A stretch of 64,000 bases of DNA. Origin: a virus. Taxonomy: Duplodnaviria; Caudoviricetes. The notes beneath the pieces are model-generated. The model saw only the letters and a list, made by a program, of their open reading frames with translations. It was not told the origin of the DNA and did no database searches. Positions 2-56,951 of the stretch are shown piece after piece. Position 1 is the first letter of the stretch; every line of letters starts with the position of its first letter. A program made the translations under genes and the position numbers. Location: IMG/VR virus record IMGVR_UViG_3300042908_001106, positions 11,494 through 75,493 of that record; one strand, written 5' to 3'.

Positions 2-3000
2 CTTGAGTTTACGAAGAAAGGACTCCTCTACCCTTTCCAAAAAATAAAAGGCTTGGTATCAAGAAAGTCGTCAGTTCCTGATGTTGAAAAATCAATTAAA
101 GGCGCTGATGCTGCCATCTTGGGTATAGTTTCGTCGATAAAATCTTTCGATGATCTTGAAAAATTAAGAGATTCGTTTGGATTGTTTCAGGTAAATATTG
201 ACAACCTAATAACAGAATTAAATCTTAGTAATACAGAAAGAAAAGGTGATGTTGAAATTGCCAAACTAAACCTAGAGAGTGGTTTAGGCACTAAGGTGTC
301 CGACGGGACTGCAACACCATCGGATCTTGCAGCCTACGATGTGGGTAGAAGCAATATAGAAGATGTTGAGGCACAAGTGAGAGAAATAGAAATTCTCACA
401 AATAGATTAAACAATATAAAACAGTTGACATCTGAAATATTGAGCAAGGAATCGTTATCAGACGATGATAAGCAACTATTAAAGGGGTTTGGCGAAGAAG
501 TAGAAGCAATTTATTTACAATTAGATGAGCCCTTGCCTAGCTCTCGATTCCTTGGTGATGTTGGCAAAATAGAGTCAAAAGGCTCTAGTTTATTCTCTAA
601 ATTAGGGATTTCAATTAAAAACCTTTTTAAAAGTTTTGTATCATTTCAGGTTTTTGGCTTTCTCCAAAACCAATTACAAAACATATCCTCCCAAACTTTT
701 GAGGTAACAAAACGATTCACTGTATTAGAAAACACTATTAATTTCCTGTCTGGTGGCACAAGGGCAGGAGCCGAACAAATGCGGTTTTTAAGAAGTGAAA
801 TAAATCGCACATCATCAGCAATTGAACCCGCATTACAATCCTATAAAAAATTAGCAGCGTCAACCCGTAACACCCCAATGGAGGGGATGATTACTAACGA
901 GGTGATGTCGGGGCTGATGCAAGCTGGGACGGTATTCGGACTAACAGGTGAGGAATTAGAGGGATCTATTCTCGCTATATCTCAGATAGCAGGGAAAGGG
1001 GTTGTTAGTCTTGAGGAATTACGGGGTCAATTAGCTGAAAGAATCCCCGGAGCGATGCAGATTGCAGCCCGGTCTATGAATATGACCGAACAGGAATTAT
1101 ATAAATTAATTTCAACAGGGACGCTATCAGCTACCGACTTTTTAACCAAGTTTGGCCCTCAATTAATGGCAGAAACGTCCGCAGGTGTGGCGGGTGCTTC
1201 TAACACGGCTCAAGCTGCGCTAACCCGATTAAATAACTCAATCACCGAAATTCAGGTGGCAGCAGGGAAAGAGTTTCAGGGGCCGTTGGTGTTAGGAATG
1301 AATGCTATTACTTCTGCTATTCAATTGGTGACTAAATATGCAGGGCCATTCATTCAGATATTACAGGTAGCTGCGGGTGTAGCTTTAGCTTACGCGGCTC
1401 CGGCAATGTGGGCATTTGTTCAAGGATTATGGCAGATACCTTTTGCGAGTGTTGCAGCAAGCATGGCAGTCAATGGATTGAAAGATACCATAATGACTTT
1501 GATAGTCCCAACCGCAGCCGCGTTTGTTGCCAATGTAGCAGCCATTTGGCTAGTGATAGAAGCTCTTAAAACATTGGGGACTGTTTGGGATGTATTCTTC
1601 TCTAAAACAGACACCCAAACATGGTCTGAGTCTGTGTATAAAAATTTGCAAAAAGCCAGACAAGAGATTAAATATCTATGGAAAGAAATTGAGAAATCTA
1701 ACAAAAATAATTTACCTAAAAAACAGGGTGAAAAATATGAAACCGAATTTAGCTATTTAGACAAAGAACAGAGAGATAAGTTAAGTGCAATGAATTTCTT
1801 GGAAAGATTTTCCTATTCATTTAGTGGGGAGAGTATGGAAGATCAGATCAAGATTCAAGATGCTTTAAAACAAACTATGAAAGACCAAAGAGATATTAAA
1901 CAACTACAACGGGACAGGGTCTCTGGTGCAATGAAAGAACTCAATAATTTTATTGACTCTGCGATAACTCAAGATAATATTAATGCGATCAAAGAATACA
2001 ATGCTCAACTTGAAAACCTACGTCAAAAAGCATCTATAACAACGAACCCAGAAGATCAAAGGAAGATTAAAGAACAAATTGAACAACTCAGAAAACTTAG
2101 AGATGGTTCCACAGTCCCTTTGGTTACAGGACTAAGGGAGGTTAATTCGGCAATTGAGAATCGGCAAAAACGAATTAAGGACACTAACAGTGACGAAAAA
2201 CGAGAAGAATTAAGATTAGATTTAATTCAACTTCAGAAACTACAAGATAGACTTCAGGATATTGAACGCCAAACCGGAGCGCAAACAACCTTATCTGAAT
2301 TAATGCAAGTCTTAGCTCGAATCAGAATCGAGATGGAGATGTTTAACCGTGTTGCTCAGGAAGTAGCAGATAAAGGGTTAAGAAGAATTGCGGAAATTGA
2401 ACTAAAGGGGTTGAGAACTGATATTTTTGCTTCGGCTGATGCAGCTTTAAAACGGTCTGAAAATGCCCTCGAATTAGTTAGAAATAAAATCAATATTTCT
2501 GCCAATGCAATCAAAGAATTGAAAGCCCTTCTCAAAGATCCAATGATAGAGCAATACACGAAATTCTACGGTGATAAAAGTTTAGAACAGTTGCGAGTCG
2601 ATTTAGAAGGGGTTGATGAAAAAGAGGTTGAACGACGCAAGACGTTAGAGGCTTTGATTTTATTGAGAGAGCAGGAATCAGGCTTAATTGCTCTACAGCG
2701 CGAACAAGCTGAATCAGTCTTGAATCTTGAAAAAGAACGCTCTCAGGCTGTTCTAAATCGCCTTGAGAGGTACAAAGCTAAAGCCCAAAACAAAGGGCAA
2801 ATAGAAGAAGCCGGATTGTTAACCGCAATCACTAGAGGACAGTTGAAATGGGAGATCGGGTCAGAAAAAGTTGATCTTCTTAAAACAGGGATCTCACTGG
2901 CTGTAATTCAACGCAATCAAAAAATAGCTGAAATTGAATTACAGACTGTTAAAAAATATTTTAAAGAAAAGAAAATTACAGCTGAAGATTTTGCTAACCG

Positions 3001-4987
3001 TCGCATGGAATTAGAATTACAGGTTGCTCAATTCATCCAACAGGTAGCAGAGCAGGAATTACAACTTAGACAACAGAAACAACAACTTCTTTTAGACCAA
3101 TTAGACAGGGCTACTAATAAGATTAAACATCAAATTAAACTAGGGGAGTTAGCTGGACAAATTAATCAAAAAACGAGCCAGATCAGAAGAGAAATTATTG
3201 TTGACACCAGAACCAGAACTGGGGAAGATACTCAAACCGACATCAATCGACAAACAGAAGATGAGACGTTAGCAGGTCAGCGCGAATCTAGTGTTTTATA
3301 TAAAGCTGAATTACAGCGAAATTTGGCACTTCTCCAGTCTCACTATAGCAACAGAGAAATTAGTCAGAGAGATTACGAGGACAAATCCCGCGAGATTGAA
3401 CAAGAAATTGCCTCAACTAATATTCAACTCAAGGATTACGAATTACAAGAGCATCAACGGTTTAATCAACGAATTGTTGACGACAGAATGAAGTCTTATC
3501 AAAGAATGGTTGAAGATTTTGAACGGACGGTTAAAACACAGGAGAATACCCTCCAACTTAGTGCTATTCGTCAAGAGCAAATTATTAGGCAACAACAGCT
3601 TAGACAAATTGATTTAATTAGCAGTCAAAAGGCTGAACAACAGGCTGCGATAACACTAAACCAATTCCAAATCGAGCAAACTAAAAAACAACTTAAAGAC
3701 ACTCTCCAGCAGATTCAAGACGTTGCTCAACTACGGAAGAAAAATGCACTTACAGAGAGAGAAACCGAGGAACGGACGATAGATTTGACGATTAAAGCTG
3801 AACAATTAAAACTTGATTTAATCAATAAACAGATTGAGAAAAATCGTGAACTTAAAGACTTAAAAATCTTAGCACTTGATGATGAGTTGTCTCGAATTGA
3901 TCTCATTTTCCAGCAACAGGAAATGGGATATTCCTACGGGTTAGAAAAACGCAAGCAAATAGTCGAGAGTTTAGACCGAGAAAAAACTGTGATGGAGGCT
4001 CAGGTCAAATTACAGCAATCCTTGTTTAAGGGTGAAGAACAGAGAAGACAAGCCGCGCTTGATCATTCTCGGAGTGCCGAGGATTTATTGGGGCGGTTGC
4101 CAGACTTGCAGAAACGGGCGGCGGATAATTCCATTAATTTTGCTGAATACAAAGGAACTCGTTACCTGATGGATCTAATTCGGAAAATGGCGGGCGCGGG
4201 GTCTGGCAGCACATTCTTATCCGAGTCTGATATTCGTGATTTGCGGACTAAACAGTTCAACCAATCAGCTTTAGAGGAAAAGAAACTTTTAGAGATGAAA
4301 ACTCGGCAATTGGAGCAACAGCAAAAGATTCAAAATGCTCAAATGCAATTGCAAAAAGTGATCAACAAACTCACAGCCGAGAATGCCATTATGGAGGCGA
4401 GTATTAGCTTGAACAAGGCACGACAAGCCGAATTACAGGCTAAAATTGCACTGGAAAAAGCTAATGTCAATGGCGACCCAAGGGAGATTCAAAACGCACA
4501 ACAGGCTTACGAATTGACCAAACAGGGGACTCAGTTAAGTCAACAACAGTTAGGGATTGCTGTTGATAAGTTGACGGTATCCAATCAGATTGCAGGGATT
4601 GATCAACAGGCTTTGGCATCTGACCAGAATAATGAGCGATTCGCCCTGCAAGAAGCAAACCGGAAGGCGTTGCAGGACACGGCGCTAAGAGGCGGGGAAT
4701 TGGCATCACAGGGAGCGATAAACCCCGATCAGATAATCCAGGTAGAGGTAGATATGTCCTCTATCAAGTTTGATTTATCCCCTATTACCCCGATGGTAGA
4801 TTTAACTTCTCAAATCAACACTAAACTGGACGCACTCCTTACTGCTATTACAGGACTGATAAATAAACCCACTGGCAATAATATAGAGAGCTTGACGGTG
4901 GTGTCCAGTGATCCAACTGGGGATAGTCGGCAAGTCATGGAGGAGATGACACGAGCCAAAAATATGTATTCTTGGGTTAGGGGTTAG
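2..4987 (+). CDS. Tail tape measure protein, 5'-truncated by window edge
   Basis: Frame is open from base 2 through the TTG at 53. Tape-measure motif KGVVSLEELRGQLAERIPGAMQIAARSM, an Ala-rich hydrophobic segment and a long Q/E/K coiled coil; over 1640 aa. Confidence 0.85.
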   Translation, partial: LEFTKKGLLYPFQKIKGLVSRKSSVPDVEKSIKGADAAILGIVSSIKSFDDLEKLRDSFGLFQVNIDNLITELNLSNTERKGDVEIAKLNLESGLGTKVSDGTATPSDLAAYDVGRSNIEDVEAQVREIEILTNRLNNIKQLTSEILSKESLSDDDKQLLKGFGEEVEAIYLQLDEPLPSSRFLGDVGKIESKGSSLFSKLGISIKNLFKSFVSFQVFGFLQNQLQNISSQTFEVTKRFTVLENTINFLSGGTRAGAEQMRFLRSEINRTSSAIEPALQSYKKLAASTRNTPMEGMITNEVMSGLMQAGTVFGLTGEELEGSILAISQIAGKGVVSLEELRGQLAERIPGAMQIAARSMNMTEQELYKLISTGTLSATDFLTKFGPQLMAETSAGVAGASNTAQAALTRLNNSITEIQVAAGKEFQGPLVLGMNAITSAIQLVTKYAGPFIQILQVAAGVALAYAAPAMWAFVQGLWQIPFASVAASMAVNGLKDTIMTLIVPTAAAFVANVAAIWLVIEALKTLGTVWDVFFSKTDTQTWSESVYKNLQKARQEIKYLWKEIEKSNKNNLPKKQGEKYETEFSYLDKEQRDKLSAMNFLERFSYSFSGESMEDQIKIQDALKQTMKDQRDIKQLQRDRVSGAMKELNNFIDSAITQDNINAIKEYNAQLENLRQKASITTNPEDQRKIKEQIEQLRKLRDGSTVPLVTGLREVNSAIENRQKRIKDTNSDEKREELRLDLIQLQKLQDRLQDIERQTGAQTTLSELMQVLARIRIEMEMFNRVAQEVADKGLRRIAEIELKGLRTDIFASADAALKRSENALELVRNKINISANAIKELKALLKDPMIEQYTKFYGDKSLEQLRVDLEGVDEKEVERRKTLEALILLREQESGLIALQREQAESVLNLEKERSQAVLNRLERYKAKAQNKGQIEEAGLLTAITRGQLKWEIGSEKVDLLKTGISLAVIQRNQKIAEIELQTVKKYFKEKKITAEDFANRRMELELQVAQFIQQVAEQELQLRQQKQQLLLDQLDRATNKIKHQIKLGELAGQINQKTSQIRREIIVDTRTRTGEDTQTDINRQTEDETLAGQRESSVLYKAELQRNLALLQSHYSNREISQRDYEDKSREIEQEIASTNIQLKDYELQEHQRFNQRIVDDRMKSYQRMVEDFERTVKTQENTLQLSAIRQEQIIRQQQLRQIDLISSQKAEQQAAITLNQFQIEQTKKQLKDTLQQIQDVAQLRKKNALTERETEERTIDLTIKAEQLKLDLINKQIEKNRELKDLKILALDDELSRIDLIFQQQEMGYSYGLEKRKQIVESLDREKTVMEAQVKLQQSLFKGEEQRRQAALDHSRSAEDLLGRLPDLQKRAADNSINFAEYKGTRYLMDLIRKMAGAGSGSTFLSESDIRDLRTKQFNQSALEEKKLLEMKTRQLEQQQKIQNAQMQLQKVINKLTAENAIMEASISLNKARQAELQAKIALEKANVNGDPREIQNAQQAYELTKQGTQLSQQQLGIAVDKLTVSNQIAGIDQQALASDQNNERFALQEANRKALQDTALRGGELASQGAINPDQIIQVEVDMSSIKFDLSPITPMVDLTSQINTKLDALLTAITGLINKPTGNNIESLTVVSSDPTGDSRQVMEEMTRAKNMYSWVRG

Positions 4988-16394: not shown

Positions 16395-16952
16395 TTAATC
16401 TTCTGAGATTTCTTGAGTTTGTTCTTTATCAAGGTTTTCAAAGTATTCGATTAATACCTTGTTTTGATAGAGTTGATCATCTACCATTGCCAGAGTTTTC
16501 AAAACTTCCATCCCATTTCGAGAGTGAACTTGCGCTCCTGACTTGGTGGCTTTAGAACAAGCCTTTAGGGAGTCTTGCTCATTATTTGCAGCTTTATAGG
16601 CATTGTTGGAAAGGGTGAGGGAATATGCTCCGTTAGTCTCTAGGGCTTTCCTGAACGCTTGCCATGTTTTTTGTTTTTCCTCTAAATCCTGTTGATAAGC
16701 CATTCTGTCCTTTTCTATTGTTGCCTTAATTATTTCTGCCCGTTCGGCTAGGAGTTCGTGTCTGATTTGCTCCCAAATAGGTAGTTTTTTCCATCGCCTT
16801 AAATTTGTTTCTGAGATGTTAAGCCGCCTACCAATCTCTCGGTTATTCAGGTAAGGGTTCTCAATAACCTCCCTGACCGCTTCCCTGATCCTTTCAATGT
16901 TTGGTACTGAAGCAATAGTTTTATTTAGCGCATGGTGACGCAATAACAACAC
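16395..16952 (-). CDS. HTH protein, possible terminase small subunit
   Basis: N-terminal HTH NREIGRRLNISETNLRRW; first gene of the head operon. Confidence 0.5.
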   Translation of the reverse strand: MLLLRHHALNKTIASVPNIERIREAVREVIENPYLNNREIGRRLNISETNLRRWKKLPIWEQIRHELLAERAEIIKATIEKDRMAYQQDLEEKQKTWQAFRKALETNGAYSLTLSNNAYKAANNEQDSLKACSKATKSGAQVHSRNGMEVLKTLAMVDDQLYQNKVLIEYFENLDKEQTQEISED

Positions 16953-16994
16953 TTTAAAGTTAACATGGTTAAAAGTCTTATTGCAAACTAATTT

Positions 16995-17561
16995 ATGAGT
17001 AAACCTAAAATTACTGAGACAGATATCAGCAAACTAACTCCCGATCCGAATAATGCACGGAAAAGAACGCCGTTATCAGCTAAGGTGATTTCCAAATCCT
17101 TAGAACAGTTTGGGGCTTGCCGTTCCATTGTGATCGACGAGAATGATGTTATCAGGGCGGGTAATGGAACCTTTGAGGAAGCGGGTCAATTAGGGATTGA
17201 GAAGGTTTTAGTTGTAGAAGCCGATGGTAATACGATTGTTGCTGTTAAGCGTAAAGGGTTATCAGAGTCGGATTGGAAACAATATGCGATCGCTGATAAT
17301 ACGGCTTCTGATTTCTCAACATGGGACTTTGATCTTTTAAATGATTTAGCTCAAGAGGTAGATTTTAGTGAGTTCTTTCCTGATTATAAATTAAATGAGT
17401 TATTAGAATCGTTTGGCAAGGGTGAAGGGTTTGGCGATACTGAACAGCAAGAGGAAGATGAGGAATCAAAACCACCAGAAGATTTTAAAGAGTATGACGA
17501 AGACATCGAAACAGAACATACTTGTCCTAAGTGTGGTTATAAATGGTCAGGGGGTAAATAA
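16995..17561 (+). CDS. ParB/Srx-like N-terminal domain protein with C-terminal Zn ribbon
   Basis: LTPDPNNAR...SLEQFG...IVID...AGNG...IADN; ends in CPKCGY. Confidence 0.75.
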   Translation: MSKPKITETDISKLTPDPNNARKRTPLSAKVISKSLEQFGACRSIVIDENDVIRAGNGTFEEAGQLGIEKVLVVEADGNTIVAVKRKGLSESDWKQYAIADNTASDFSTWDFDLLNDLAQEVDFSEFFPDYKLNELLESFGKGEGFGDTEQQEEDEESKPPEDFKEYDEDIETEHTCPKCGYKWSGGK

Positions 17562-18632
17562 ATGAATACTAAACCTATTTACCGCGTTCCTCTAATGAAA
17601 GAGATAGAAGAAATACCCTGGAATGGGTTTAATGTTGTCTCTACATTTAGCGGAACAGGCGGATCATGTCTTGGTTATCGGATGGCTGGCTATCGAGTCT
17701 TGTGGGCTAATGAATTTATTCCTGCGGCTCAGGATTCTTATAAAGCTAATCATCCAAATTCAATTCTTGACAGGCGAGATATCCGAGAGATTTCTGCTCA
17801 GGATATCTTAACAGCAACCGGATTGAAAATAGGAGAGATAGATATATTTGATGGCTCTCCCCCTTGTGCAGCTTTTTCAACAGCAGGAAAACGTGAAGCA
17901 GGATGGGGAAAAGTTAAGCAATATTCAGATACCAAGCAAAGAGTTGATGATTTGTTTTTTGAGTACGCTCGACTAATCAAAGGAACACAGCCTAAAGTCT
18001 TTGTTGCTGAAAACGTATCAGGATTAATCAAAGGAACAGCTAAAGGCTACTTCTTAGAAATCCTTAAAACACTCAAAGATTGCGGTTATAACGTCAAGTG
18101 TAAAGTGCTAGATGCTCAATGGCTTGGTGTTCCTCAAATGCGACAACGGACTATCTTTATAGGTGTTAGGAATGATTTGAAGTTAGAACCTGTTCACCCA
18201 AAACCGTTGCATTATCAGTACACAGTTAGAGATGCTTTACCTTGGATAACTCAGATTAGACAAACAGATGTTTTTGTCGAAGCAGAAACCGATATCTCAA
18301 AATATGCAATTGGTAGAGAATGGGACAAAATAAAACAAGGCGAAAGTTCAGAGAAGTATTTTTCTCTGACTAAGCCACACCTAGATAAACCGTCTCCATG
18401 CGTCACCCAAATAGGCGGTGACAATACTTGTGCATCGGTAGTTCATCCCACAGAAAAACGGAAATTTTCAATTCAAGAGTTAAAACGAATTTGCGCTTTT
18501 CCTGATGATTTCATTCTAACAGGTTCCTACGTCCAACAATGGGAACGATTAGGCCGTGCTGTTCCACCTGTTATGATGTCACATATTGCCAAAACAATTC
18601 AATTAGAAATACTAGAAAAATGTGTGGATTAG
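17562..18632 (+). CDS. C5-cytosine DNA methyltransferase-fold enzyme with motif X Asn to Arg (predicted carboxymethyltransferase)
   Basis: Motif I FSGTGG, IV GSPPC, VI ENV, VIII Q.R.R; motif X is GRAVPP instead of GNAVPP. Confidence 0.9.
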   Translation: MNTKPIYRVPLMKEIEEIPWNGFNVVSTFSGTGGSCLGYRMAGYRVLWANEFIPAAQDSYKANHPNSILDRRDIREISAQDILTATGLKIGEIDIFDGSPPCAAFSTAGKREAGWGKVKQYSDTKQRVDDLFFEYARLIKGTQPKVFVAENVSGLIKGTAKGYFLEILKTLKDCGYNVKCKVLDAQWLGVPQMRQRTIFIGVRNDLKLEPVHPKPLHYQYTVRDALPWITQIRQTDVFVEAETDISKYAIGREWDKIKQGESSEKYFSLTKPHLDKPSPCVTQIGGDNTCASVVHPTEKRKFSIQELKRICAFPDDFILTGSYVQQWERLGRAVPPVMMSHIAKTIQLEILEKCVD

Positions 18633-19975
18633 CGGGTACATACAAATCCAGCGTAGATGTAGAGTCTATGCTTCTTAAAATAATACATAGGGGGCGAGAT
18701 GGTCAAGGTGTTCACAAGCATGAAGACACTGTTCATGGTCACGTTAGGCTGTCTTTACTTGATTTAAGTTCGGCATCTAAACAACCTTTTATCTTAAATA
18801 ATTCCACTCTTTCATTTAATGGTGAGATATGGAATTATAGAGATATAAAAAAGAAGTTACAAGACGACGGGTGCAAATTCAATACAACAGGTGACACCGA
18901 AGTATTGAGTCAATTTTTAGATATTTACGGTGTTTCACGGCTAAATCAACTAGAGGGAATGTTTGCTTTTGTATGGAGTAAAGGGGATGAGCATTGGCTT
19001 GTGAGAGACCGTTTTGGTGAGATACCCTTGTATCTGGCAAAAACGAATAAAGGGTATATTTGGGCATCTGAAAGAAAAGCATTTCCTAGTGGTGTTATGC
19101 CTGTTGCCGTTCCTCCGGGCTATGCTTTTAATCTAGTGAAAGGCGAGTGGTTTCAATGGTACAAGCTACCAGGAACAACACCACAGCAAAATATATTAGA
19201 TTGCTTGAATAGGGGTGTAGAACAAAGATTAAATGCTGATGCTCCCGTCTGCTGTCTTATATCGGGCGGATTAGATAGCGTCTTGGTTCTGCAAATAGCA
19301 AAGTCTATAAACAAAAACATCGTAGCTTTTACAGCAAAAATGCGTAATGATTCAAATGATTTACTAGCAGCCAGGAAGATATGTAGTGAGTATGAAATTC
19401 AATTAATAGAAGTGCCAGTATCTATTGATTTAGATTCTTTAACTAACGCAGCCAAGGTAATAGAAATTAACAGCAAAGCTCAAATAGAGATAGCTTCATT
19501 ATGTCTACCATTAGCACAAAGGATAAGGGCAGAAGGCTTTAAATCTTGCTTATCTGGTGAAGCTGCCGACGAGCTTTTTGGTGGTTATGGTAATTTCTGT
19601 ATTCAGGCATCCAAAAGCACAAATACAGAAGTTATATCTCTTAGAAAAAGTCAATTAGCAAAAATGGCAAGAGGTAATTTTGTTAGGTGCAATAAGTCTT
19701 TTATGTATGGTGGCGTAGAGTGTAGATTGCCTTTTATGGATGTGAAGTTAGTTGAATATGCCATAAACTTAGACCTCTCGCAATCACCACCAAATAAAAA
19801 ACTACTGAAATCCGCGTCGGCTAGACTGCTACCTAAATGGGTGATATCCAGGGTTAAGGATACTTTTCAAGGTGGTAGTGGTGTGTCCGATTGGACAGAG
19901 AAAAATATAGCATCGCCAATAAAATTTTACAACAACGAACTAAAGAAAACTTTTGGATACTTACCCAAGGATTAA
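18620..19975 (+). CDS. Asparagine synthetase B-like glutamine amidotransferase
   Basis: True start MCG at 18620 (Ntn Cys2); HRGRD, NGEIWN, DTE, RDRFGE, SGGLDS and SGEAADELFGGY motifs. Confidence 0.9.
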   Translation: MCGLAGTYKSSVDVESMLLKIIHRGRDGQGVHKHEDTVHGHVRLSLLDLSSASKQPFILNNSTLSFNGEIWNYRDIKKKLQDDGCKFNTTGDTEVLSQFLDIYGVSRLNQLEGMFAFVWSKGDEHWLVRDRFGEIPLYLAKTNKGYIWASERKAFPSGVMPVAVPPGYAFNLVKGEWFQWYKLPGTTPQQNILDCLNRGVEQRLNADAPVCCLISGGLDSVLVLQIAKSINKNIVAFTAKMRNDSNDLLAARKICSEYEIQLIEVPVSIDLDSLTNAAKVIEINSKAQIEIASLCLPLAQRIRAEGFKSCLSGEAADELFGGYGNFCIQASKSTNTEVISLRKSQLAKMARGNFVRCNKSFMYGGVECRLPFMDVKLVEYAINLDLSQSPPNKKLLKSASARLLPKWVISRVKDTFQGGSGVSDWTEKNIASPIKFYNNELKKTFGYLPKD

Positions 19976-19976
19976 C

Positions 19977-20681
19977 ATGAATAATTATCACGTCCCATCT
20001 AAAGATAAATGGGAATTTGACGAATCAGTAACAGACATTTTTGATGATATGTTGGCTCGTTCAATTCCTCAATACGAGGTAATGAGAGACGCTGTTACCA
20101 ATATCGCTCGTGAATACATAAAACCCGCCAGTTCTGTCATAGATATTGGATGCTCAAGAGGTGAGCAGATATCTCGACTAATTCAATCCTATGGGACTAA
20201 TTGCACCTATTATGGAATCGAAGTTAGTCAACCGATGATTAACGCGAGTAGGGAAAAGTTTAAGGGTTTTGAATGCGTCAGTTTACATGAATTAGATTTA
20301 AGAAAAGATTGGTTAACTCTTAAAAACGTATCCGTCACTTTGTCGGTTTTAACTTTACAGTTTATTCCGATTGAATACAGATTAAGACTACTCAAAAAAA
20401 TCTATGATTCAACTCGAAAAGGCGGGTGTTTTATTTTAGTTGAAAAAGTTATTGGGGGGTCTGCTGATATTGACAGTTTATTGACCAATCAGTATTATAA
20501 CTTAAAACATCAGAATGGTTATTCTATTTATGAGATAGAACGGAAAAAATTAAGCCTAGAGGGTGTACTTGTTCCGGTAACAGCTAATTGGAATGAAGAA
20601 ATGCTTAGATTGTCTGGTTTTACTGAGGTTGATTGTTTTTGGCGTTGGATGAACTTTTCTGGATGGATTGCTGTTAAGTAG
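19977..20681 (+). CDS. cmoA: CmoA-like carboxy-S-adenosylmethionine synthase
   Basis: WEFDESVTDIFDDMLARSIPQY, DIGCSRG, LTLQF, LVEK, SLEGVL and WMNF match the CmoA pattern; ATG 1 nt after the AsnB-like stop. Confidence 0.8.
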   Translation: MNNYHVPSKDKWEFDESVTDIFDDMLARSIPQYEVMRDAVTNIAREYIKPASSVIDIGCSRGEQISRLIQSYGTNCTYYGIEVSQPMINASREKFKGFECVSLHELDLRKDWLTLKNVSVTLSVLTLQFIPIEYRLRLLKKIYDSTRKGGCFILVEKVIGGSADIDSLLTNQYYNLKHQNGYSIYEIERKKLSLEGVLVPVTANWNEEMLRLSGFTEVDCFWRWMNFSGWIAVK

Positions 20682-20725
20682 AATGAAACTAATGGAAAGA
20701 TTGCCAGATTAATTAATATTAACTG

Positions 20726-20777
20726 TGATATAATATTAATAGTAAATGCCCTTCGCGATGTTTCAGCATCCAAGGGC
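20726..20777 (+). promoter_or_regulatory. Extended -10 promoter plus leader hairpin (copy C)
   Basis: TGATATAAT then GCCCTT-CGC-GATG-TTTCAG-CATC-C-AAGGGC. Confidence 0.65.
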
Positions 20778-20803
20778 TGTAAACCTGATTCAGAGGTATC
20801 ACA

Positions 20804-21610
20804 ATGAATAACTTTAACAAAGAATTGGCTCTAACCTTAATTGATTCTAGCATTGAGTTTCCCGTTGACTTTGATGACGCGATGCAATGGTGGGACTGTC
20901 GGACTAAGGATGGAAGTCTTACCACTCGACGGCAGTTAGTCGCAAAACTCAAGCAAAACTTTGATCAAGGATTAGATTGGACTTTTGCACAAATTTATGA
21001 AAAAGTCCAAACAGGGCGACCCGTTGATAAAATCTACCTGACAGTGGACACCTTCAAAGAAATGGGAATGATGTTACCTAGTGGCAAGGGCAAAGAGATC
21101 CGGCGTTATTTCCTTGAGTGTGAACGGGAGTTAAAACAACTTAGATCAGAATCCGCCCAAACTCAAACAGTCTCATCCCAACCCACGCCGCGCGATATTG
21201 CTGATTTTGTCTCTGTCATCCTAAATATCGCGGGTTTGGATCAGAGTATGATTGCAGCGTCCGCAGCTAATCACGTCGCTAAATATTATCCGGCGCTCCG
21301 TCCCTCGGCTGAAGACTTAAAAAAGGAATTAGTCATCGAGACATCGGAAAAACTTCTCACGCCCACCGAACTCGGATTAATCCTAGAGCAGCGCACCGGA
21401 ATTAAACACTCAGCGCAACGGGTCAACAAACTCCTATCTGAGAATGGATTGCAAACCCCGAACCCTCACGGGAAAGATCCGGCTTGGTTGCCAACTCTAA
21501 AAGGATCAGGATTTTCTAAGTTGTTACTCGCCGCACAGAAGGGGATTAAGGACGCAACCCGTCAACATTTGCAATGGTTTGAATCCGTTGTTGATGTTTT
21601 GGCGGTGTAG
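20804..21610 (+). CDS. Phage antirepressor (AntA/AntB-like N-terminus, Ant C-terminal-like)
   Basis: FPVDFDDA, LTVDTFKEMGM...KGKEIRRYFLECE, LTPTELG...VNKLL motifs. Confidence 0.8.
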   Translation: MNNFNKELALTLIDSSIEFPVDFDDAMQWWDCRTKDGSLTTRRQLVAKLKQNFDQGLDWTFAQIYEKVQTGRPVDKIYLTVDTFKEMGMMLPSGKGKEIRRYFLECERELKQLRSESAQTQTVSSQPTPRDIADFVSVILNIAGLDQSMIAASAANHVAKYYPALRPSAEDLKKELVIETSEKLLTPTELGLILEQRTGIKHSAQRVNKLLSENGLQTPNPHGKDPAWLPTLKGSGFSKLLLAAQKGIKDATRQHLQWFESVVDVLAV

Positions 21611-49665: not shown

Positions 49666-50244
49666 ATGACCGCAGCAACCAAGAAGATATTTGAAAGACT
49701 TTTAAAAGTCGGTGACTGGGTAGAGATTGACCCCCACAAACACCGCCCAAACTATTTAATTAAGGGAACAGCTTGGCGGGTTGAGGGATTTAATTCAATA
49801 AAACAAACCTGTCAAATAACTAACGAAAAAACAGGGAATTTACATAGATCGGAAACCCTAGATTTTGAGGAAGTTTCCGATTCATCCCCCTTCAAAAAAA
49901 CCGACATTGCCCAACTTAAAAGCGACCCTCGATATATTGGGCGGATTGTTAATTGTCGAAGAAATAAAATAACAATTGAATGGGCATGGGGTGGAGTCCG
50001 AGAATCCCTAGACTCGGACAAAATAAAGTTATTTGTTCGGATGGTCATGGGGGAACAAATATTGTTGGGTGATTATGCTTTTAAAGAAGGCGATCGCGTT
50101 CACACCAGTGATAAGAATTTTGGCAATGTGATTCTAACTGTTCGGGAGTGTTTACCATCTGGAATGGTTGAATTAATGGCTTCAAACAATCCCAGTTTAA
50201 TCCTCCCCGGCTGTGGCTTAACAATTGTTGAGGAGGATTTCTAA
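49666..50244 (+). CDS. Hypothetical protein with repeated KOW/SH3-like units
   Basis: LKVGDWV, FKKTDIA and FKEGDRV repeats. Confidence 0.55.
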   Translation: MTAATKKIFERLLKVGDWVEIDPHKHRPNYLIKGTAWRVEGFNSIKQTCQITNEKTGNLHRSETLDFEEVSDSSPFKKTDIAQLKSDPRYIGRIVNCRRNKITIEWAWGGVRESLDSDKIKLFVRMVMGEQILLGDYAFKEGDRVHTSDKNFGNVILTVRECLPSGMVELMASNNPSLILPGCGLTIVEEDF

Positions 50245-51278
50245 TGCTAACATTTGCAACATTATTTACAGGCGGTGGTGGCGCAGATTTAGGCCTAGAG
50301 TCAGCAGGATTTAAGTCTATCTGGGGAGTTGAGCGAGATCCTAAAATTGCTAAAGTTGCCCAAGTAAATCTCCCTAATACTAAAATATTTAATTCTTGCG
50401 TCGGTGAAATTCGCACTTATCTCATGGAACGGGTTGATTTGCTTTGGATGAGTCCCCCATGTCAGCAATATTCAATGGCGCGGCGTGGTGATATTCCCGA
50501 TCACAAAGACAAAGATGCGGGGTTGTATTGTCGGGACTATATAGCTACATTAAACCCTCGATGGGTGGTTCTTGAGAATGTACCAGGATATGCTAAGTCG
50601 CCGACATTTGAGGCGATATTGCGATCGCTGATTGATTGTGGATATCGCTACCATTGGTTGATTCTTGACGCGGCGGATTATGGGGTTCCGCAAAGCCGGA
50701 AACGATTAATCATGTGGGCAGTCAAAAACTCAGAACCCCTCCCATATTTTCCCGAATCAAAGCCTAGAAAGGGATGGTATCAAGCTATTAGTGATTTAAT
50801 CCCTGAGATGAATGATTGTGAGCTTGCAGACTGGCAGATTAAGCGACTGAATGAACTGGGTTGTTTACCAGAAAAAGCCTTGATTGATATTGGGAAACAA
50901 CTCATTAGACAGGCTACAGTTCGGGAGTCAAACGATCCAAGTTTTACTATTGTGGGGGGTCACGTCAATTCGCACTCACCCATCCTGTTAATCCCCCGAG
51001 CGGGAGCCTGCATCAAGAATATTCTCCCGACTCCGCAGAACAAACCCTGCCCAACAATTCGAGCTATGGCATCGGGGCGGCATACCCACTGGGCGGACAT
51101 CATGGAGGGAAGTCAAGTTAAACGAATTAGTCAGAAAGCGACGGCACGGCTTCAGACTTTCCCTGATGATTACAAACTCCCAGAAGCCAAATCTTTAAGC
51201 CAACAAATAATCGGGAATGCAGTGCCGCCGTTGTTGGCTAAAGAATTAGGTCTGGCAATCTTAAAATCAATTAACTAA
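50244..51278 (+). CDS. C5-cytosine DNA methyltransferase (canonical)
   Basis: LFTGGGG, SPPCQ, ENV, Q.RKR, motif X GNAVPP. Confidence 0.9.
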   Translation: MLTFATLFTGGGGADLGLESAGFKSIWGVERDPKIAKVAQVNLPNTKIFNSCVGEIRTYLMERVDLLWMSPPCQQYSMARRGDIPDHKDKDAGLYCRDYIATLNPRWVVLENVPGYAKSPTFEAILRSLIDCGYRYHWLILDAADYGVPQSRKRLIMWAVKNSEPLPYFPESKPRKGWYQAISDLIPEMNDCELADWQIKRLNELGCLPEKALIDIGKQLIRQATVRESNDPSFTIVGGHVNSHSPILLIPRAGACIKNILPTPQNKPCPTIRAMASGRHTHWADIMEGSQVKRISQKATARLQTFPDDYKLPEAKSLSQQIIGNAVPPLLAKELGLAILKSIN

Positions 51279-53549: not shown

Positions 53550-54686
53550 GTGACTCAGAAGAAAGCACCCAAAGGAAGCGTACAGGTCAAAACTACCATC
53601 AGTTCTGCGGGGGTGGGGTGGCTCCGGTTGGTTTGGTCGTATCAGGGCAAAAGATATTTTTTGAGCTTAGGATTGGAGGATAATCCCCTAAATCAGATGG
53701 TGGCACAACGGTTGGCTTTACAAATTCAAGGGGACTGCGCCACGGGAAACTTCGATAGCTCCTTGATTAAATACAAACCGCAATTAGCCCGACAATTGAA
53801 ACCCGTCACGGTTTCAGTTGTCGGGCTAATTGAGCAATATTTAATTTTCAAACAGCAACAAATTGAATCAGAAACGCTTTATAAATACAATCATTTCTTG
53901 CCCAGGATTAAACAATATTTTGGTAATGATAGCCTGACTGAAAAATCCGCTTTTGGCTTTCGTGATTGGCTGCTACAACACAACGAACCCGCCACAGTTA
54001 GGGAAAGAATTGTATTCTTAAATGCTGTTTACGAGTGGGGGATTAAGCGTCAATTAGTCGAGAATAATCCCTGGACTGAAGTATCGGTCAAGGTTCCGCC
54101 AAAACGACGGTTAAAGCCATTTTCAATTGAGGAAATAAAACGGATTTTAGAAGGGTTTGCAACGGATCAATATTATTCCCATTATCTCCCTTATGTTGAG
54201 TTTTTACTGGGTACAGGTTGCCGCCCGGGTGAAGCAAACGGGCTCCAGTGGAAACATTTCTCAGAAGATTGTGGAGAGGTTCTAATAGCCTGTAAATTAA
54301 CGGTATCCGGTGAGCGGAAATCGACTAAAACTAATCGCGATCGCTTAATCCCCCTACCCTCACGCCTTCAAAATATTCTCAAAGCAATCCGTCCGATTGA
54401 CCCCGACCCTGAAGCTCCGGTTTTTGTCTCCTTGACTGGATTGCCAATTGATTCCCACAACTTCAGGAATCGGGCTTGGAAACAGGTTTTAGCTAAGGTT
54501 GGTGTGGAATATAGAAAGCCCGGAAACTGCCGTCATACTCTGATTTCTCATGGGTTATCGCAAGGGAAAAGCCCTGCTGAAATGGCAGAACTCGCAGGGA
54601 ATAGAATTGAGACTATTTACAATAATTATGCTGGGAGCGTGATTCATCGGCCCTCACTACCTGAATTATTCCCAGATGACGAATAA
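53550..54686 (+). CDS. int: Tyrosine recombinase/integrase with arm-binding N-terminus
   Basis: TGCRPGE (R), KT (K), CRHT, NNY (Tyr); N-terminal arm-binding domain. Confidence 0.9.
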   Translation: MTQKKAPKGSVQVKTTISSAGVGWLRLVWSYQGKRYFLSLGLEDNPLNQMVAQRLALQIQGDCATGNFDSSLIKYKPQLARQLKPVTVSVVGLIEQYLIFKQQQIESETLYKYNHFLPRIKQYFGNDSLTEKSAFGFRDWLLQHNEPATVRERIVFLNAVYEWGIKRQLVENNPWTEVSVKVPPKRRLKPFSIEEIKRILEGFATDQYYSHYLPYVEFLLGTGCRPGEANGLQWKHFSEDCGEVLIACKLTVSGERKSTKTNRDRLIPLPSRLQNILKAIRPIDPDPEAPVFVSLTGLPIDSHNFRNRAWKQVLAKVGVEYRKPGNCRHTLISHGLSQGKSPAEMAELAGNRIETIYNNYAGSVIHRPSLPELFPDDE

Positions 54687-56190: not shown

Positions 56191-56790
56191 TCACCCAGCC
56201 ACAGGGACAGGAATAATCCCCATCAGAATGCCAGATATTTCCTGAGTTATTTGCGTAGTTGTTCGCTTAGCGTCAATCACAATCCAGTTATTTTGCCTAG
56301 CCGCCAATTCCAGATATCCAAACCGAACCCGATCTAAAAAAAGCAAGTCTCTTTCAATCTTGTCCAGAGGTTTGTCGAGATCGCGGCGCACCGCCACCTC
56401 AACAGGACAATCAAACAAAATCACCATATCAGGATCAATTCCCCCCGTCGCCTCGTGATTTAGCTTCCTTAAATTATCTAAATTAAGTCCGTGTCCATAG
56501 CCTTGATAGGCAAGCGTTGAATCCGTGTATCGATCACACAATACCAAATCAGAATCTTCTAACAAATATTTAATCGTGGGATTGTGTTTAATCCTGTCCT
56601 TCAGGATTAATTTAAGCTGCTGCTCCGGCGTTAAACACCCATTCTTTAATTCAAAACGAACGTCATAATCACAGGGTTCTCTTGTGATGTAAAATTTTAA
56701 CTTTAACGCCGTGAAATGGTCGCAAAGTTTTCTGATTTGGGTTGTTTTCCCACTGCGGTCAATTCCTTCAAAAGCAATCAATTTACTCAT
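56191..56790 (-). CDS. tmk: Thymidylate kinase
   Basis: FEGIDRSGKTTQ, TREP, CDRYTDSTLAYQG; ATG at 56790. Confidence 0.92.
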   Translation of the reverse strand: MSKLIAFEGIDRSGKTTQIRKLCDHFTALKLKFYITREPCDYDVRFELKNGCLTPEQQLKLILKDRIKHNPTIKYLLEDSDLVLCDRYTDSTLAYQGYGHGLNLDNLRKLNHEATGGIDPDMVILFDCPVEVAVRRDLDKPLDKIERDLLFLDRVRFGYLELAARQNNWIVIDAKRTTTQITQEISGILMGIIPVPVAG

Positions 56791-56951
56791 TTCATCCTCA
56801 TCCAATTTTTAATCAAATCATCTTTAATCATACTCTGTTTTACTAATTCAATAATATGCTCCTTAGCTTGTTCCAAAGTTAGATTGTCAAGATTTCGCCT
56901 GATTACTGCGAGTTGGAATTCTTGCTCGGTTGTTAGTTGTATGGGTTGCAT
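56787..56951 (-). CDS. nblA: Phycobilisome degradation protein NblA homologue (54 aa, not in ORF track)
   Basis: MQPIQLTTEQEFQL...LTLEQAKEHIIELVKQSMIKD matches NblA L(S/T).EQ.F...EQA..L..L..Q.M.(K/R); AGGAG RBS; ATGA-coupled to tmk. Confidence 0.8.
   Translation of the reverse strand: MQPIQLTTEQEFQLAVIRRNLDNLTLEQAKEHIIELVKQSMIKDDLIKNWMRMK

What the first reader, a model, noticed from the sequence alone, without database searches (positions are those of the whole stretch)
16995..20681. Predicted cytosine hypermodification operon: Cx-SAM synthase + Arg-variant C5-MTase + AsnB amidotransferase (5-carbamoylmethylcytosine?)
Seen: four coupled genes encoding a ParB-like protein, a C5-MTase, an AsnB-like enzyme with intact Cys2 glutaminase and SGGLDS ATP motif, and a CmoA-like enzyme. 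No CmoB-like tRNA enzyme was recognised in the window. Known: CmoA makes carboxy-SAM from SAM and prephenate, AsnB enzymes adenylate a carboxylate and amidate it with glutamine-derived ammonia, and ParB-like genes often lead phage DNA-modification operons. Inference: the MTase transfers carboxymethyl to cytosine C5 and the AsnB-like enzyme converts it to the amide, 5-carbamoylmethylcytosine, as an anti-restriction mark. I recall carboxymethylcytosine being reported in a cyanophage with a different amide ligase (needs checking). I do not know of the AsnB-coupled route being characterised. Caveat: the position matching E. coli CmoA Arg199 appears to be Lys here (RKKLSLEGV).
Basis: partly seen in the sequence, partly recalled or inferred. 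Interest (0 to 1): 0.95.

Follow-up and report, generated by a model that had tools for sequence, protein, structure and literature searches.

The report
Cyanophage carboxymethylcytosine amidation operon
A Planktothrix-type cyanophage carries the recently described gene set that puts a carboxymethyl group on DNA cytosine, here joined to a glutamine-using amide-forming enzyme whose product, probably 5-carbamoylmethylcytosine, has been predicted in print but never measured.

Summary
Four translationally coupled + strand genes encode a ParB-like protein, a C5-MTase with Arg at motif X, an AsnB-like amidotransferase and a CmoA-like enzyme. The 75.5-kb virus record has no CmoB.

The chemistry is already in print. 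Yang et al. 2025 (PMC12783734) proved CmoA, CmoX and CmoY in Synechococcus phage S-B43. They also noted a ligase cluster with a glutaminase domain (exemplar A0A7T0Q3R0) and predicted ammonia as its substrate, but could not obtain soluble enzyme. The window's ligase falls in one tree clade with that exemplar, Streptomyces phage TurkishDelight gp124, which sits in the same gene order.

- S-B43-like contigs in which cmoY is replaced gene for gene by an AsnB-type ligase.
- A signature of the CmoX/CmoA-linked ligases (E. coli AsnB D384 to N and V272 to A, 32 of 32 rows, 0 of 108 others).
- Swapping of the CmoX target-recognition cassette among near-identical phages.
- PaV-LD holding a ParB-N6/N4 methylase fusion at the same site.

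The CmoA Arg199-to-Lys caveat is real but weak, because the biochemically active SpCmoA has Glu there.

Verdict: a new member of a known kind whose final product is untested. The scan has met CmoA/CmoX/CmoY cassettes before on other DNA.

The parts
16995..17561 (+). ParB-like protein (188 aa) with an acidic linker and a C-terminal CxxC zinc-ribbon-like tail. It leads the operon; its role is unknown.
   Evidence: phrog_620 'ParB-like partition protein', 9.2e-32. PF02195 does not match even at E up to 1. 74% aa identity over 93 residues to the N-terminal part of PaV-LD ORF098R, a ParB-like/N6_N4 methylase fusion. ParBc proteins accompany CmoX in 1660 contigs according to Yang et al..
17562..18632 (+). 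CmoX-type DNA cytosine-C5 carboxymethyltransferase (356 aa). Catalytic Cys102 lies in the SPPC motif (17865-17867). Arg332 sits at motif X (18555-18557).
   Evidence: PF00145, 1.3e-59. Best solved structure is 8YF3 (SpCmoX), E 9.4e-72. Arg332 aligns with SpCmoX Arg350. SpCmoX Phe25, Glu47, Phe48, Asp69 and Cys98 are all matched (alignment; residue roles). The window's second C5-MTase has Asn at this site.
18238..18491 (+). Target-recognition cassette of CmoX. It is exchanged among near-identical relatives.
   Evidence: blastn: in L004 and L007 the flanks are 97-99% identical, while 18238-18491 has no match and is replaced by a shorter stretch. In L005, L014 and L023, 18236-18446 is replaced. 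L012 has about 65 extra bases between window positions 18247 and 18271. The protein alignment places the differences between motifs VIII and IX.
18620..19975 (+). Glutamine-dependent AsnB-type amide ligase (451 aa). It has an N-terminal Ntn glutaminase domain (Cys2) and a PP-loop synthetase domain (SGGLDS, residues 215-220). Asn353 stands at the E. coli AsnB Asp384 position.
   Evidence: GATase_6/7 plus Asn_synthase. TIGR01536 257.4 bits against a cut-off of 267.1; NF006949 236.6 against 499. AF2 model pLDDT 88.9; best fold match 1CT9, TMq 0.89. Catalytic residues conserved. In one tree clade with A0A7T0Q3R0.
19977..20681 (+). Phage CmoA, predicted carboxy-SAM synthase (234 aa). Lys191 (20547-20549) stands at the E. 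coli CmoA Arg199 position.
   Evidence: TIGR00740 164.3 bits (cut-off 193.3), against 115.6 bits for the biochemically active SpCmoA. phrog_4752, 7.3e-72. PDB 1IM8, 4GEK and 4IWN at E 1e-32 to 2e-29. SAM-contact positions Tyr39, Asp62, Gly64, Ser66, Asp117 and Phe137 are kept.

Best explanation
This is a CmoA-CmoX-ligase DNA hypermodification operon in a temperate, PaV-LD-like freshwater cyanophage.

**Proposed steps.**
1. CmoA makes carboxy-SAM from SAM and host prephenate. This is inferred from homology; the activity was shown for the S-B43 homologue.
2. The CmoX-type C5 transferase uses its motif-X arginine to hold the cofactor's carboxylate. It carboxymethylates cytosine C5 in double-stranded phage DNA at sites set by its exchangeable recognition cassette. 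This is inferred; the activity was shown for SpCmoX, which is 42% identical.
3. The AsnB-type enzyme adenylates the 5-carboxymethyl carboxylate on DNA and amidates it with ammonia channelled from its own glutaminase domain, giving 5-carbamoylmethylcytosine. This is inferred; no member of this ligase clade has been assayed.

**Purpose.** The mark most likely protects phage DNA from host restriction, as 5cxmC blocks HhaI in vitro.
For: **1. All parts are present and coupled**.

**2. CmoX meets both published criteria**, SPPC and the Arg350 equivalent. Its best PDB match is SpCmoX, 8YF3, at 9.4e-72. The same genome holds a canonical Asn-type C5-MTase as an internal contrast.

**3. The CmoA is closer to the family model than a proven enzyme.** It scores higher against TIGR00740 (164.3 bits) than SpCmoA (115.6 bits), whose Cx-SAM synthase activity was measured.

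**4. Linkage.** 98 viral loci with an AsnB-like gene were examined.
- 37 carry CmoX and/or CmoA in the locus.
- 34 of these carry both; the other three are cut by contig ends.
- 61 carry neither.
- Motif X is Arg in 32 of the 37, is not covered by the hit in 4, and is never Asn.

**5. One clade.** All 27 linked ligases in a 138-row tree fall in one clade of 30, support 98.

**6. Natural swap.** Contigs L096, L097 and L101 are syntenic with S-B43. Their flanks are 72-87% nt identical. Across L096-L102, CmoA is 85-91% and CmoX 76-93% aa identical to S-B43's. They carry a 1.39-kb AsnB-type gene exactly where S-B43 has cmoY. The two ligase types therefore occupy the same pathway position.

**7. 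The glutaminase and synthetase sites look intact.**
- Glutaminase residues Cys1, Arg49, Asn74, Gly75 and Asp98 are kept in all 32 linked rows. Glu76 is kept in the window.
- The synthetase residues SGGxDS, Glu348, Asp351, Tyr357, Lys429 and Lys449 are kept.
- Asp384 belongs to the pocket for aspartate's alpha-amino group in the human ASNS model (Asp-400; PMC6748925 passages). It is Asn in 32 of 32 linked rows and in 0 of 108 other AsnB-likes.

**8. Published prediction.** Yang et al. independently predicted ammonia for the A0A7T0Q3R0 cluster. That protein is TurkishDelight gp124, which lies in the same ParB-MTase-ligase-CmoA order.
Against: - No chemistry was measured for any member of the AsnB-type ligase clade. 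Yang et al. could not obtain soluble enzyme.
- The CmoA is below NCBIfam's equivalog cut-off (164.3 against 193.3 bits). It has Lys, not Arg, at the Cx-SAM carboxylate contact Arg199 (PMC3663124).
- The ligase keeps Glu348, Asp351 and Glu352 of the aspartate amino-group pocket, so only one pocket residue distinguishes it from asparagine synthetases.
- Three members of the same clade lack CmoX and CmoA nearby: L022, L109 and L114. L022 comes from a complete 115-kb phage with no CmoX homologue at all. The clade is therefore not tied to 5cxmC alone.
- The tree is a FastTree run with long branches and compositional warnings.
- The target sequence of this CmoX is unknown.
Confidence: 0.65

Rival explanations
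1. The pathway runs as proposed up to 5cxmC, but the ligase product is not the plain primary amide. One option is that it takes another nitrogen donor through the glutaminase domain. The AsnB homologue TsnB9 is titled a hydroxyamidotransferase in the PDB. Another option is that it processes the amide further, for example by a second ATP-dependent dehydration to a nitrile, as I recall for QueC.
For: - 7YLZ (hydroxyamidotransferase TsnB9) is among the sequence and fold matches.
- There are weak PP-loop matches to QueC.
- Yang et al. state that several ligase clusters may use other amines.
Against: - The operon holds no extra gene that could make an unusual donor.
- The glutaminase residues are those of ordinary AsnB.
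- The QueC matches cover only the PP-loop region, residues 212-282.
- The QueC nitrile chemistry is recalled and was not tested here.
Confidence: 0.1
2. The AsnB-type enzyme amidates the cofactor rather than the DNA. Cx-SAM would become carbamoylmethyl-SAM, and the MTase would then transfer the ready-made carbamoylmethyl group.
For: AsnB enzymes normally act on small molecules. The end product would be the same, so gene content alone cannot separate the two orders.
Against: - The MTase keeps the arginine that binds the cofactor's carboxylate, and all linked CmoX have it.
- SpCmoX R350N is inactive with either cofactor.
- SpCmoY, which the AsnB-type replaces gene for gene in S-B43-like phages, acts on 5cxmC DNA in vitro.
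Confidence: 0.06
3. The AsnB-like gene is an ordinary auxiliary metabolic asparagine synthetase. Alternatively, CmoA serves mainly to drain host SAM, with no coupled DNA hypermodification.
For: - Close to the TIGR01536 cut-off (257.4 against 267.1 bits).
- The AsnB fold.
- Most catalytic residues are kept.
- Yang et al. raise SAM depletion by CmoA as a possibility.
Against: - Below both AsnB equivalog cut-offs.
- Shorter than other AsnB-likes: 451-481 aa against a median of 558.
- The D384N and V272A signature is absent from 108 other AsnB-likes.
- Strict neighbourhood linkage and translational coupling with CmoX and CmoA.
- It replaces cmoY in S-B43-like phages.
Confidence: 0.04

Closest known systems
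CmoA-CmoX-CmoY of Synechococcus phage S-B43 (Yang et al., Nat Commun 2025, PMC12783734; PDB 8YF3)
   Same: - Phage CmoA plus an Arg-variant C5 transferase plus an ATP-dependent amide ligase in one operon, with no CmoB.
- CmoX is 42% identical, with SPPC and the Arg350 equivalent.
- ParB-like neighbours are common in this family.
   Different: - The ligase here carries an N-terminal glutaminase domain. It is only remotely related to SpCmoY: 27% over 115 residues, E 1e-4.
- SpCmoY is 271 aa, lacks that domain and adds glycine.
- The gene order and the CmoX recognition cassette differ.
- The host is a filamentous freshwater cyanobacterium rather than marine Synechococcus. This is inferred from the PaV-LD similarity.
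Streptomyces phage TurkishDelight gp121-125, whose gp124 is UniProt A0A7T0Q3R0, the exemplar of Yang et al.'s second-largest ligase cluster
   Same: - Same order: ParB-like, MTase, GATase/Asn_synthase ligase, CmoA.
- MTase 57% identical; ligase 31.5% identical, E 4e-56.
- Both ligases are in one tree clade.
- Predicted ammonia substrate.
   Different: - The CmoA is of a divergent subtype: 24% identical to the window's, with Ala at position 199.
- Actinophage rather than cyanophage.
- Neither ligase has been characterised.
Asparagine synthetase B (E. coli AsnB, 1CT9; human ASNS, 6GQ3)
   Same: - Two-domain fold, TMq 0.89 to 1CT9.
- Cys1, Arg49, Asn74, Glu76 and Asp98 in the glutaminase site.
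- SGGLDS, Glu348, Asp351, Tyr357, Arg387, Lys429 and Lys449 in the synthetase site.
   Different: - Below the equivalog cut-offs.
- About 100 residues shorter at the C-terminus.
- Asp384 to Asn and Val272 to Ala throughout the linked ligases.
- The gene context is DNA modification, not amino-acid metabolism.
E. coli CmoA/CmoB tRNA cmo5U pathway
   Same: CmoA homologue with the same fold and SAM contacts.
   Different: - No CmoB in the virus record.
- The carboxymethyl acceptor is predicted to be DNA cytosine.
- Lys instead of Arg199.
Engineered M.MpeI N374K carboxymethyltransferase (as described in Yang et al.)
   Same: A basic residue at the motif-X Asn position lets a C5-MTase use Cx-SAM.
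   Different: It is a laboratory variant with Lys and CG specificity. Here the residue is a natural Arg, and the specificity is unknown.

Membership tests
CmoX (DNA cytosine C5-carboxymethyltransferase, Yang et al. 2025) | C5-MTase fold with the SPPC catalytic motif | tested here: met
   PF00145, 1.3e-59. GSPPC with Cys102 aligned to SpCmoX Cys98.
CmoX (DNA cytosine C5-carboxymethyltransferase, Yang et al. 2025) | Arg at the position of SpCmoX Arg350 (M.HhaI Asn304), which contacts the Cx-SAM carboxylate | tested here: met
   Arg332 aligns with Arg350 of 8YF3. The window's other C5-MTase has Asn.
CmoX (DNA cytosine C5-carboxymethyltransferase, Yang et al. 2025) | Transfers carboxymethyl, not methyl, to DNA cytosine | not testable with these tools
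   Needs an enzyme assay or nucleoside LC-MS.
CmoA (carboxy-SAM synthase) | Reaches the curated score of the equivalog model TIGR00740 | tested here: not met
   164.3 bits against a cut-off of 193.3. The biochemically active SpCmoA scores only 115.6 bits, so the cut-off excludes proven phage enzymes.
CmoA (carboxy-SAM synthase) | Arg199, which forms a salt bridge to the carboxylate of Cx-SAM (Byrne et al. 2013, PMC3663124) | tested here: not met
   Lys191 is at this position. An 84%-identical relative (L014) has Arg; L019 and L027 have Arg; L021 has Lys; the active SpCmoA has Glu.
CmoA (carboxy-SAM synthase) | SAM-binding residues of E. coli CmoA: Tyr39, Asp62, Gly64, Ser66, Asp89, Asp117, Phe137 | tested here: met
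   All are kept except Asp89, which is Glu, a conservative change shared with SpCmoA.
AsnB-type, glutaminase-bearing CmoX-linked ligase (Yang et al.'s A0A7T0Q3R0 cluster) | Glutamine-hydrolysing domain fused to an Asn_synthase AMP-forming domain, encoded next to CmoX and CmoA | tested here: met
   Domains, context. In one tree clade with A0A7T0Q3R0. 31.5% identity, E 4e-56, which is at the edge of their network threshold of 1e-56.
SpCmoY-type glycine ligase | Synthetase-only protein of about 270 aa with residues that bind the glycine carboxylate | tested here: not met
   The window's ligase has a glutaminase domain and is only 27% identical over 115 aa to SpCmoY. The glycine-binding residues are shown only in a supplementary figure that I did not see.
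Asparagine synthetase B (asparagine-making enzyme) | Reaches the equivalog cut-offs and keeps the aspartate alpha-amino pocket (Glu348, Asp351, Asp384) | tested here: not met
   TIGR01536 257.4 against 267.1; NF006949 236.6 against 499. Asp384 is Asn, as in 32 of 32 linked rows and 0 of 108 others.
ParB/ParBc domain (PF02195) | Match to the Pfam ParBc model | tested here: not met
   PF02195 does not appear at E up to 1. Only PHROG families annotated as ParB-like match.

The most novel reading that the evidence does not exclude
5-carbamoylmethylcytosine is a natural DNA base made in PaV-LD-like Planktothrix phages and many others by a dedicated clade of AsnB-derived, glutamine-dependent DNA amidotransferases. 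Phage populations vary which sequences carry it by swapping the recognition cassette of CmoX. The same ligase clade may also amidate other carboxylated bases in phages that lack CmoX, such as L022, L109 and L114.
Probability: 0.55. Interest if true: 0.6.

Novelty: new member of a known kind. Interest (0 to 1): 0.42.

Why it matters
The base 5-carbamoylmethylcytosine has not been shown in any DNA, and the one published attempt to assay this ligase type failed because the enzyme was insoluble. This cyanophage offers another gene set to try. Its ligase is compact at 451 aa, and its CmoA resembles canonical CmoA more closely than the proven phage enzyme does.

The natural cmoY-to-AsnB swap in S-B43-like phages also suggests a direct test. 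The already working SpCmoX could be paired with an AsnB-type ligase from a near relative.

The D384N/V272A signature gives annotators a way to separate these DNA amidotransferases from asparagine synthetases. The cassette swapping shows how the sites of hypermodification can diversify at strain level.

Tried and rejected
- **Host from binned genomes.** The scan of genome contigs gave the operon only on short contigs in bins of unrelated taxa (Acetobacteraceae, Terrimicrobiaceae, Gammaproteobacteria, Gemmataceae). I read these as phage contigs swept into bins, not as hosts. The remaining hits were cellular AsnB-likes, which I used as the outgroup set.
- **Promoters and terminators.** The scan around the operon found no more sites than shuffles (13 against 15.5 promoter-like; 3 against 3.3 terminator-like), so I claim no transcription signals.
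- **tRNA genes.** None in the window.
- **The Arg199 caveat as disqualifying.** Rejected, because active SpCmoA has Glu there in my alignment. That alignment is of distant sequences and could be shifted by a residue or two around SpCmoA's Lys200 and Arg203.
- **Complex prediction.** I did not run one for CmoX with the ligase. I do not claim they bind, and the gene-for-gene swap beside a 76-93% identical CmoX argues against a co-evolved interface.
- **Target motif of this CmoX.** I could not work it out, because no library of methylase specificities was on hand.
- **Literature.** Searches for a characterised AsnB-type route or for the name carbamoylmethylcytosine found nothing beyond Yang et al..
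- **Supplements of Yang et al.** I did not open them. Supplementary Fig. 8 and Supplementary Table 1 may hold ligase active-site details that bear on the clade signature.

Full report
**1. The observation**

Reading the junctions directly gives these results:
- The ParB-like gene ends with TAA at 17559-17561, and the MTase ATG follows at 17562.
- The MTase stop (TAG, 18630-18632) overlaps by 13 nt the ATG at 18620, which opens the AsnB-like frame with Met-Cys-Gly.
- The AsnB-like stop (19973-19975) lies one base before the CmoA ATG at 19977.

The true starts of the last two genes are therefore 18620 and 19977, not the upstream starts of the ORF list.

Family searches support the names of three of the four genes:
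- MTase: PF00145 at 1.3e-59.
- Ligase: GATase_6/7 plus Asn_synthase.
- CmoA-like: TIGR00740 at 3.8e-48, with TIGR01536 at 3.3e-76 for the ligase; phrog_4752 for the CmoA-like.

The ParB-like name rests on PHROGs only (phrog_620, 9.2e-32). Pfam's ParBc model does not match even at E up to 1.

The window lies in a 75,493-base IMG/VR virus record, linear and 78% complete by CheckV. That record has no match to the CmoB model.

**2. What is already known**

The library holds one paper on the subject: Yang et al., Nat Commun 2025 (PMC12783734). I read its outline, Results, Discussion and some found passages.

In Synechococcus phage S-B43 the paper shows the following:
- A phage CmoA makes Cx-SAM.
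- A C5-MTase homologue, CmoX, makes 5-carboxymethylcytosine in GC motifs. Its crystal structure is 8YF3, and Arg350 contacts the cofactor's carboxymethyl group.
- The R350N variant accepts neither cofactor.
- An asparagine-synthetase homologue, CmoY, ligates glycine to the carboxylate on DNA.
- Virion DNA carries the glycine amide.

The bioinformatics section lists 5,615 CmoX candidates, defined by SPPC plus the Arg350 equivalent. It also lists 4,257 CmoA, 2,251 ligases and 1,660 ParBc proteins.

[quoted passage not shown] It adds that soluble enzyme could not be obtained.

Searches for the product's name and for follow-up work found nothing more.

**3. The transferase**

- The best solved relative of the MTase is SpCmoX itself (8YF3, E 9.4e-72).
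- In that alignment Arg332 of the window protein stands under Arg350, and Cys102 under Cys98.
- The other named cofactor contacts (Phe25, Glu47, Phe48, Asp69) are identical.
- The window's second C5-MTase (50244-51278; PF00145 5.7e-51) has Asn at motif X (IGNAVPP).

**4. The CmoA**

In the phmmer alignment to E. coli CmoA (4GEK) and in a 12-sequence alignment numbered on E. coli CmoA, Lys191 occupies the Arg199 position. Byrne et al. describe Arg199 as the salt-bridge partner of the cofactor's carboxylate (PMC3663124, passages).

Three results weaken the concern:
- The 84%-identical relative L014 has Arg there. L019 and L027 have Arg, and L021 has Lys.
- SpCmoA, whose activity was measured (kcat 2.33 per s), has Glu at this column, with basic residues one and four positions later.
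- The window's CmoA scores 164.3 bits against TIGR00740. SpCmoA scores 115.6 and the TurkishDelight enzyme 89.5. All are under the 193.3-bit cut-off.

**5. The ligase**

*Conserved residues.* Against E. coli AsnB, taken from NC_000913, the window protein keeps the following:
- Glutaminase residues Cys1, Arg49, Asn74, Gly75, Glu76 and Asp98.
- Synthetase residues of the SGGLDS loop, plus Glu348, Asp351, Glu352, Tyr357, Arg387, Lys429 and Lys449.

*Fold.* An AlphaFold2 model built on a 14-row alignment has mean pLDDT 88.9. Its best fold match is 1CT9, TMq 0.89.

*Why it is not an ordinary AsnB.*
- It is below both AsnB equivalog cut-offs.
- It is short: 451 aa, where the linked rows span 451-481 aa and the other AsnB-likes have a median of 558.
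- It carries a clade signature in a 143-row alignment. Asp384 is Asn in 32 of 32 CmoX/CmoA-linked rows and in 0 of 108 others, of which 97 have Asp. Val272 is Ala in 32 of 32 and in 0 of 108.

In the human enzyme the equivalent of Asp384 (Asp-400) is modelled as part of the pocket that holds the substrate's charged amino group, together with Glu-364 and Asp-367 (PMC6748925, passages). Losing that charge fits a substrate without an alpha-ammonium group. The other two acidic residues remain, so the signature is suggestive only.

*Relation to SpCmoY.* SpCmoY is only remotely related (27% over 115 residues) and lacks the glutaminase domain.

**6. Linkage and phylogeny**

A0A7T0Q3R0 is gp124 of Streptomyces phage TurkishDelight (exact look-up). 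Its locus reads ParB-like, ParB-like, methyltransferase, glutamine amidotransferase, methyltransferase. Identity to the window's proteins is 57% for the MTase, 31.5% for the ligase and 24% for CmoA.

Two scans of IMG/VR gave 98 loci with an AsnB-like gene. A tblastn survey of them found the following:

| Result | Loci |
|---|---|
| CmoX and/or CmoA in the locus | 37 |
| of these, both present | 34 |
| of these, cut by a contig end (L103, L108, L110) | 3 |
| Neither present | 61 |

Among the 37, motif X reads Gly-Arg in 32, falls outside the best hit segment in 4, and is never Gly-Asn.

A FastTree tree of 138 AsnB-like proteins puts all 27 linked rows into one clade of 30 with support 98. Rows were dropped as follows: of 166 extracted proteins, 11 were incomplete, 9 were exact duplicates, 3 were under 400 aa, and 5 were near-identical to the window.

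The other three members of the clade are L022, L109 and L114. The tool warned of long branches and uneven composition, and no bootstrap or AU test was run.

**7. A natural ligase swap**

Seven complete ligases (L096-L102), and the partial loci L103, L108 and L110, come from relatives of S-B43. Their CmoA is 85-91% identical to S-B43's. Their CmoX is 76-93% identical where present.

For L096, L097 and L101, DNA comparison with the S-B43 locus shows 72-87% identity up to the end of cmoA, and again from the start of cmoX. The 0.8-kb cmoY is replaced by a 1.39-kb AsnB-type gene.

This is the strongest comparative evidence here that the AsnB-type enzyme does CmoY's job on CmoX's product. These seven have Thr at the Glu76 position; the window's enzyme keeps Glu.

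**8. Surroundings**

The phage is temperate and infects cyanobacteria:
- It encodes an integrase (PF00589), a thymidylate kinase and a 54-aa NblA (PF04485, 5.7e-12).
- Its DnaB helicase is 94.4% identical to that of Planktothrix phage PaV-LD.

PaV-LD does not appear among the phage records matching the CmoA or the ligase. Its genome is nevertheless syntenic on both sides of the operon, at window 16920-17465 and 20698-21603.

At that site PaV-LD has ORF098R, a ParB-like N-terminus (74% identical to the window's) fused to an N6_N4 DNA methylase domain (PF01555, 6.8e-14). The site therefore holds alternative DNA-modification modules behind a shared ParB-like leader.

Among contigs whose ligase and CmoA are 98-100% identical to the window's, CmoX is only 69-91% identical in several. 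The difference is confined to the recognition region:
- Window 18238-18491 is replaced in L004 and L007, between flanks of 97-99% nt identity.
- A second variant occurs in L005, L014 and L023.
- L012 has a variant with extra sequence.

**9. Verdict**

It is not new as an idea.

I file the operon as a new member of the published CmoA-CmoX-ligase kind, in the uncharacterised glutaminase-bearing subgroup. The first two steps rest on close homology to proven enzymes. The amidation to 5-carbamoylmethylcytosine is inferred from domain content, conserved catalytic residues, strict linkage and the cmoY replacement. It still needs mass spectrometry.

Earlier agents of this scan reported CmoA/CmoX/CmoY cassettes on other DNA. 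They also reported AsnB-like genes beside thymidylate-synthase-like genes, or beside GNAT and methyltransferase-like genes. These resemble the contexts I saw in L022 and L114.

Noticed in passing
window 50244-51278 (+): A second C5 cytosine methyltransferase with the canonical Asn at motif X (IGNAVPP). The phage therefore encodes both an ordinary 5mC-type enzyme and a CmoX-type enzyme.
   Followed up: partly
window 18238-18491; L004, L005, L007, L012, L014, L023: The CmoX target-recognition region is exchanged as a cassette among contigs whose flanking DNA is 97-99% identical. At least four variants were seen, which suggests strain-level differences in the sequences that get hypermodified.
   Followed up: partly
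L170 (Planktothrix phage PaV-LD, NC_016564) 2716-3840, against window 16920-21603: PaV-LD is syntenic on both sides of the operon. At that site it carries a single gene that fuses the same ParB-like N-terminus to an N6_N4 DNA methylase domain. The locus looks like a swap site for DNA-modification modules.
   Followed up: partly
L022 5001-6410 (complete 115-kb phage, handle G001): A member of the same short AsnB-like clade (Asn at the Asp384 position, Asp at Glu348) in a phage with no CmoX homologue. Nearby genes include a radical SAM protein and a thymidylate-synthase-like protein. This may be a different amide-bearing base.
   Followed up: partly
L114 6001-7437 and L109: Two basal members of the ligase clade lie beside a GNAT acetyltransferase and weak N6-methylase-like genes, without CmoX or CmoA in the locus.
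   Followed up: partly
L096-L102: The AsnB-type ligases of S-B43-like phages have Thr in place of glutaminase residue Glu76 (FNGTIWNY), while Cys1, Arg49, Asn74 and Asp98 are kept. Whether their glutaminase is fully active is open.
   Followed up: no
L008 and L009 (CmoA), L013 (ligase), L019 (CmoX): In these contigs the gene's tblastn match is split into two pieces. This points to frameshifts or assembly errors in some copies of the operon.
   Followed up: no
L008 1904-2350; L014 7274-7720: Some relatives carry a second ParB-like copy, 70-79% identical to the window's, upstream or downstream of the operon.
   Followed up: no
window 56787-56951 (-), 56191-56805 (-), 53550-54686 (+): A 54-aa NblA (PF04485, 5.7e-12) overlaps the start of a thymidylate kinase gene, and there is a tyrosine integrase. 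Together these mark a temperate cyanophage.
   Followed up: partly
L023, L024, L025, L027 (genome contigs): The operon appears on short contigs binned into MAGs of unrelated phyla. These are most likely phage contigs swept into bins, so the bin labels should not be read as hosts.
   Followed up: no
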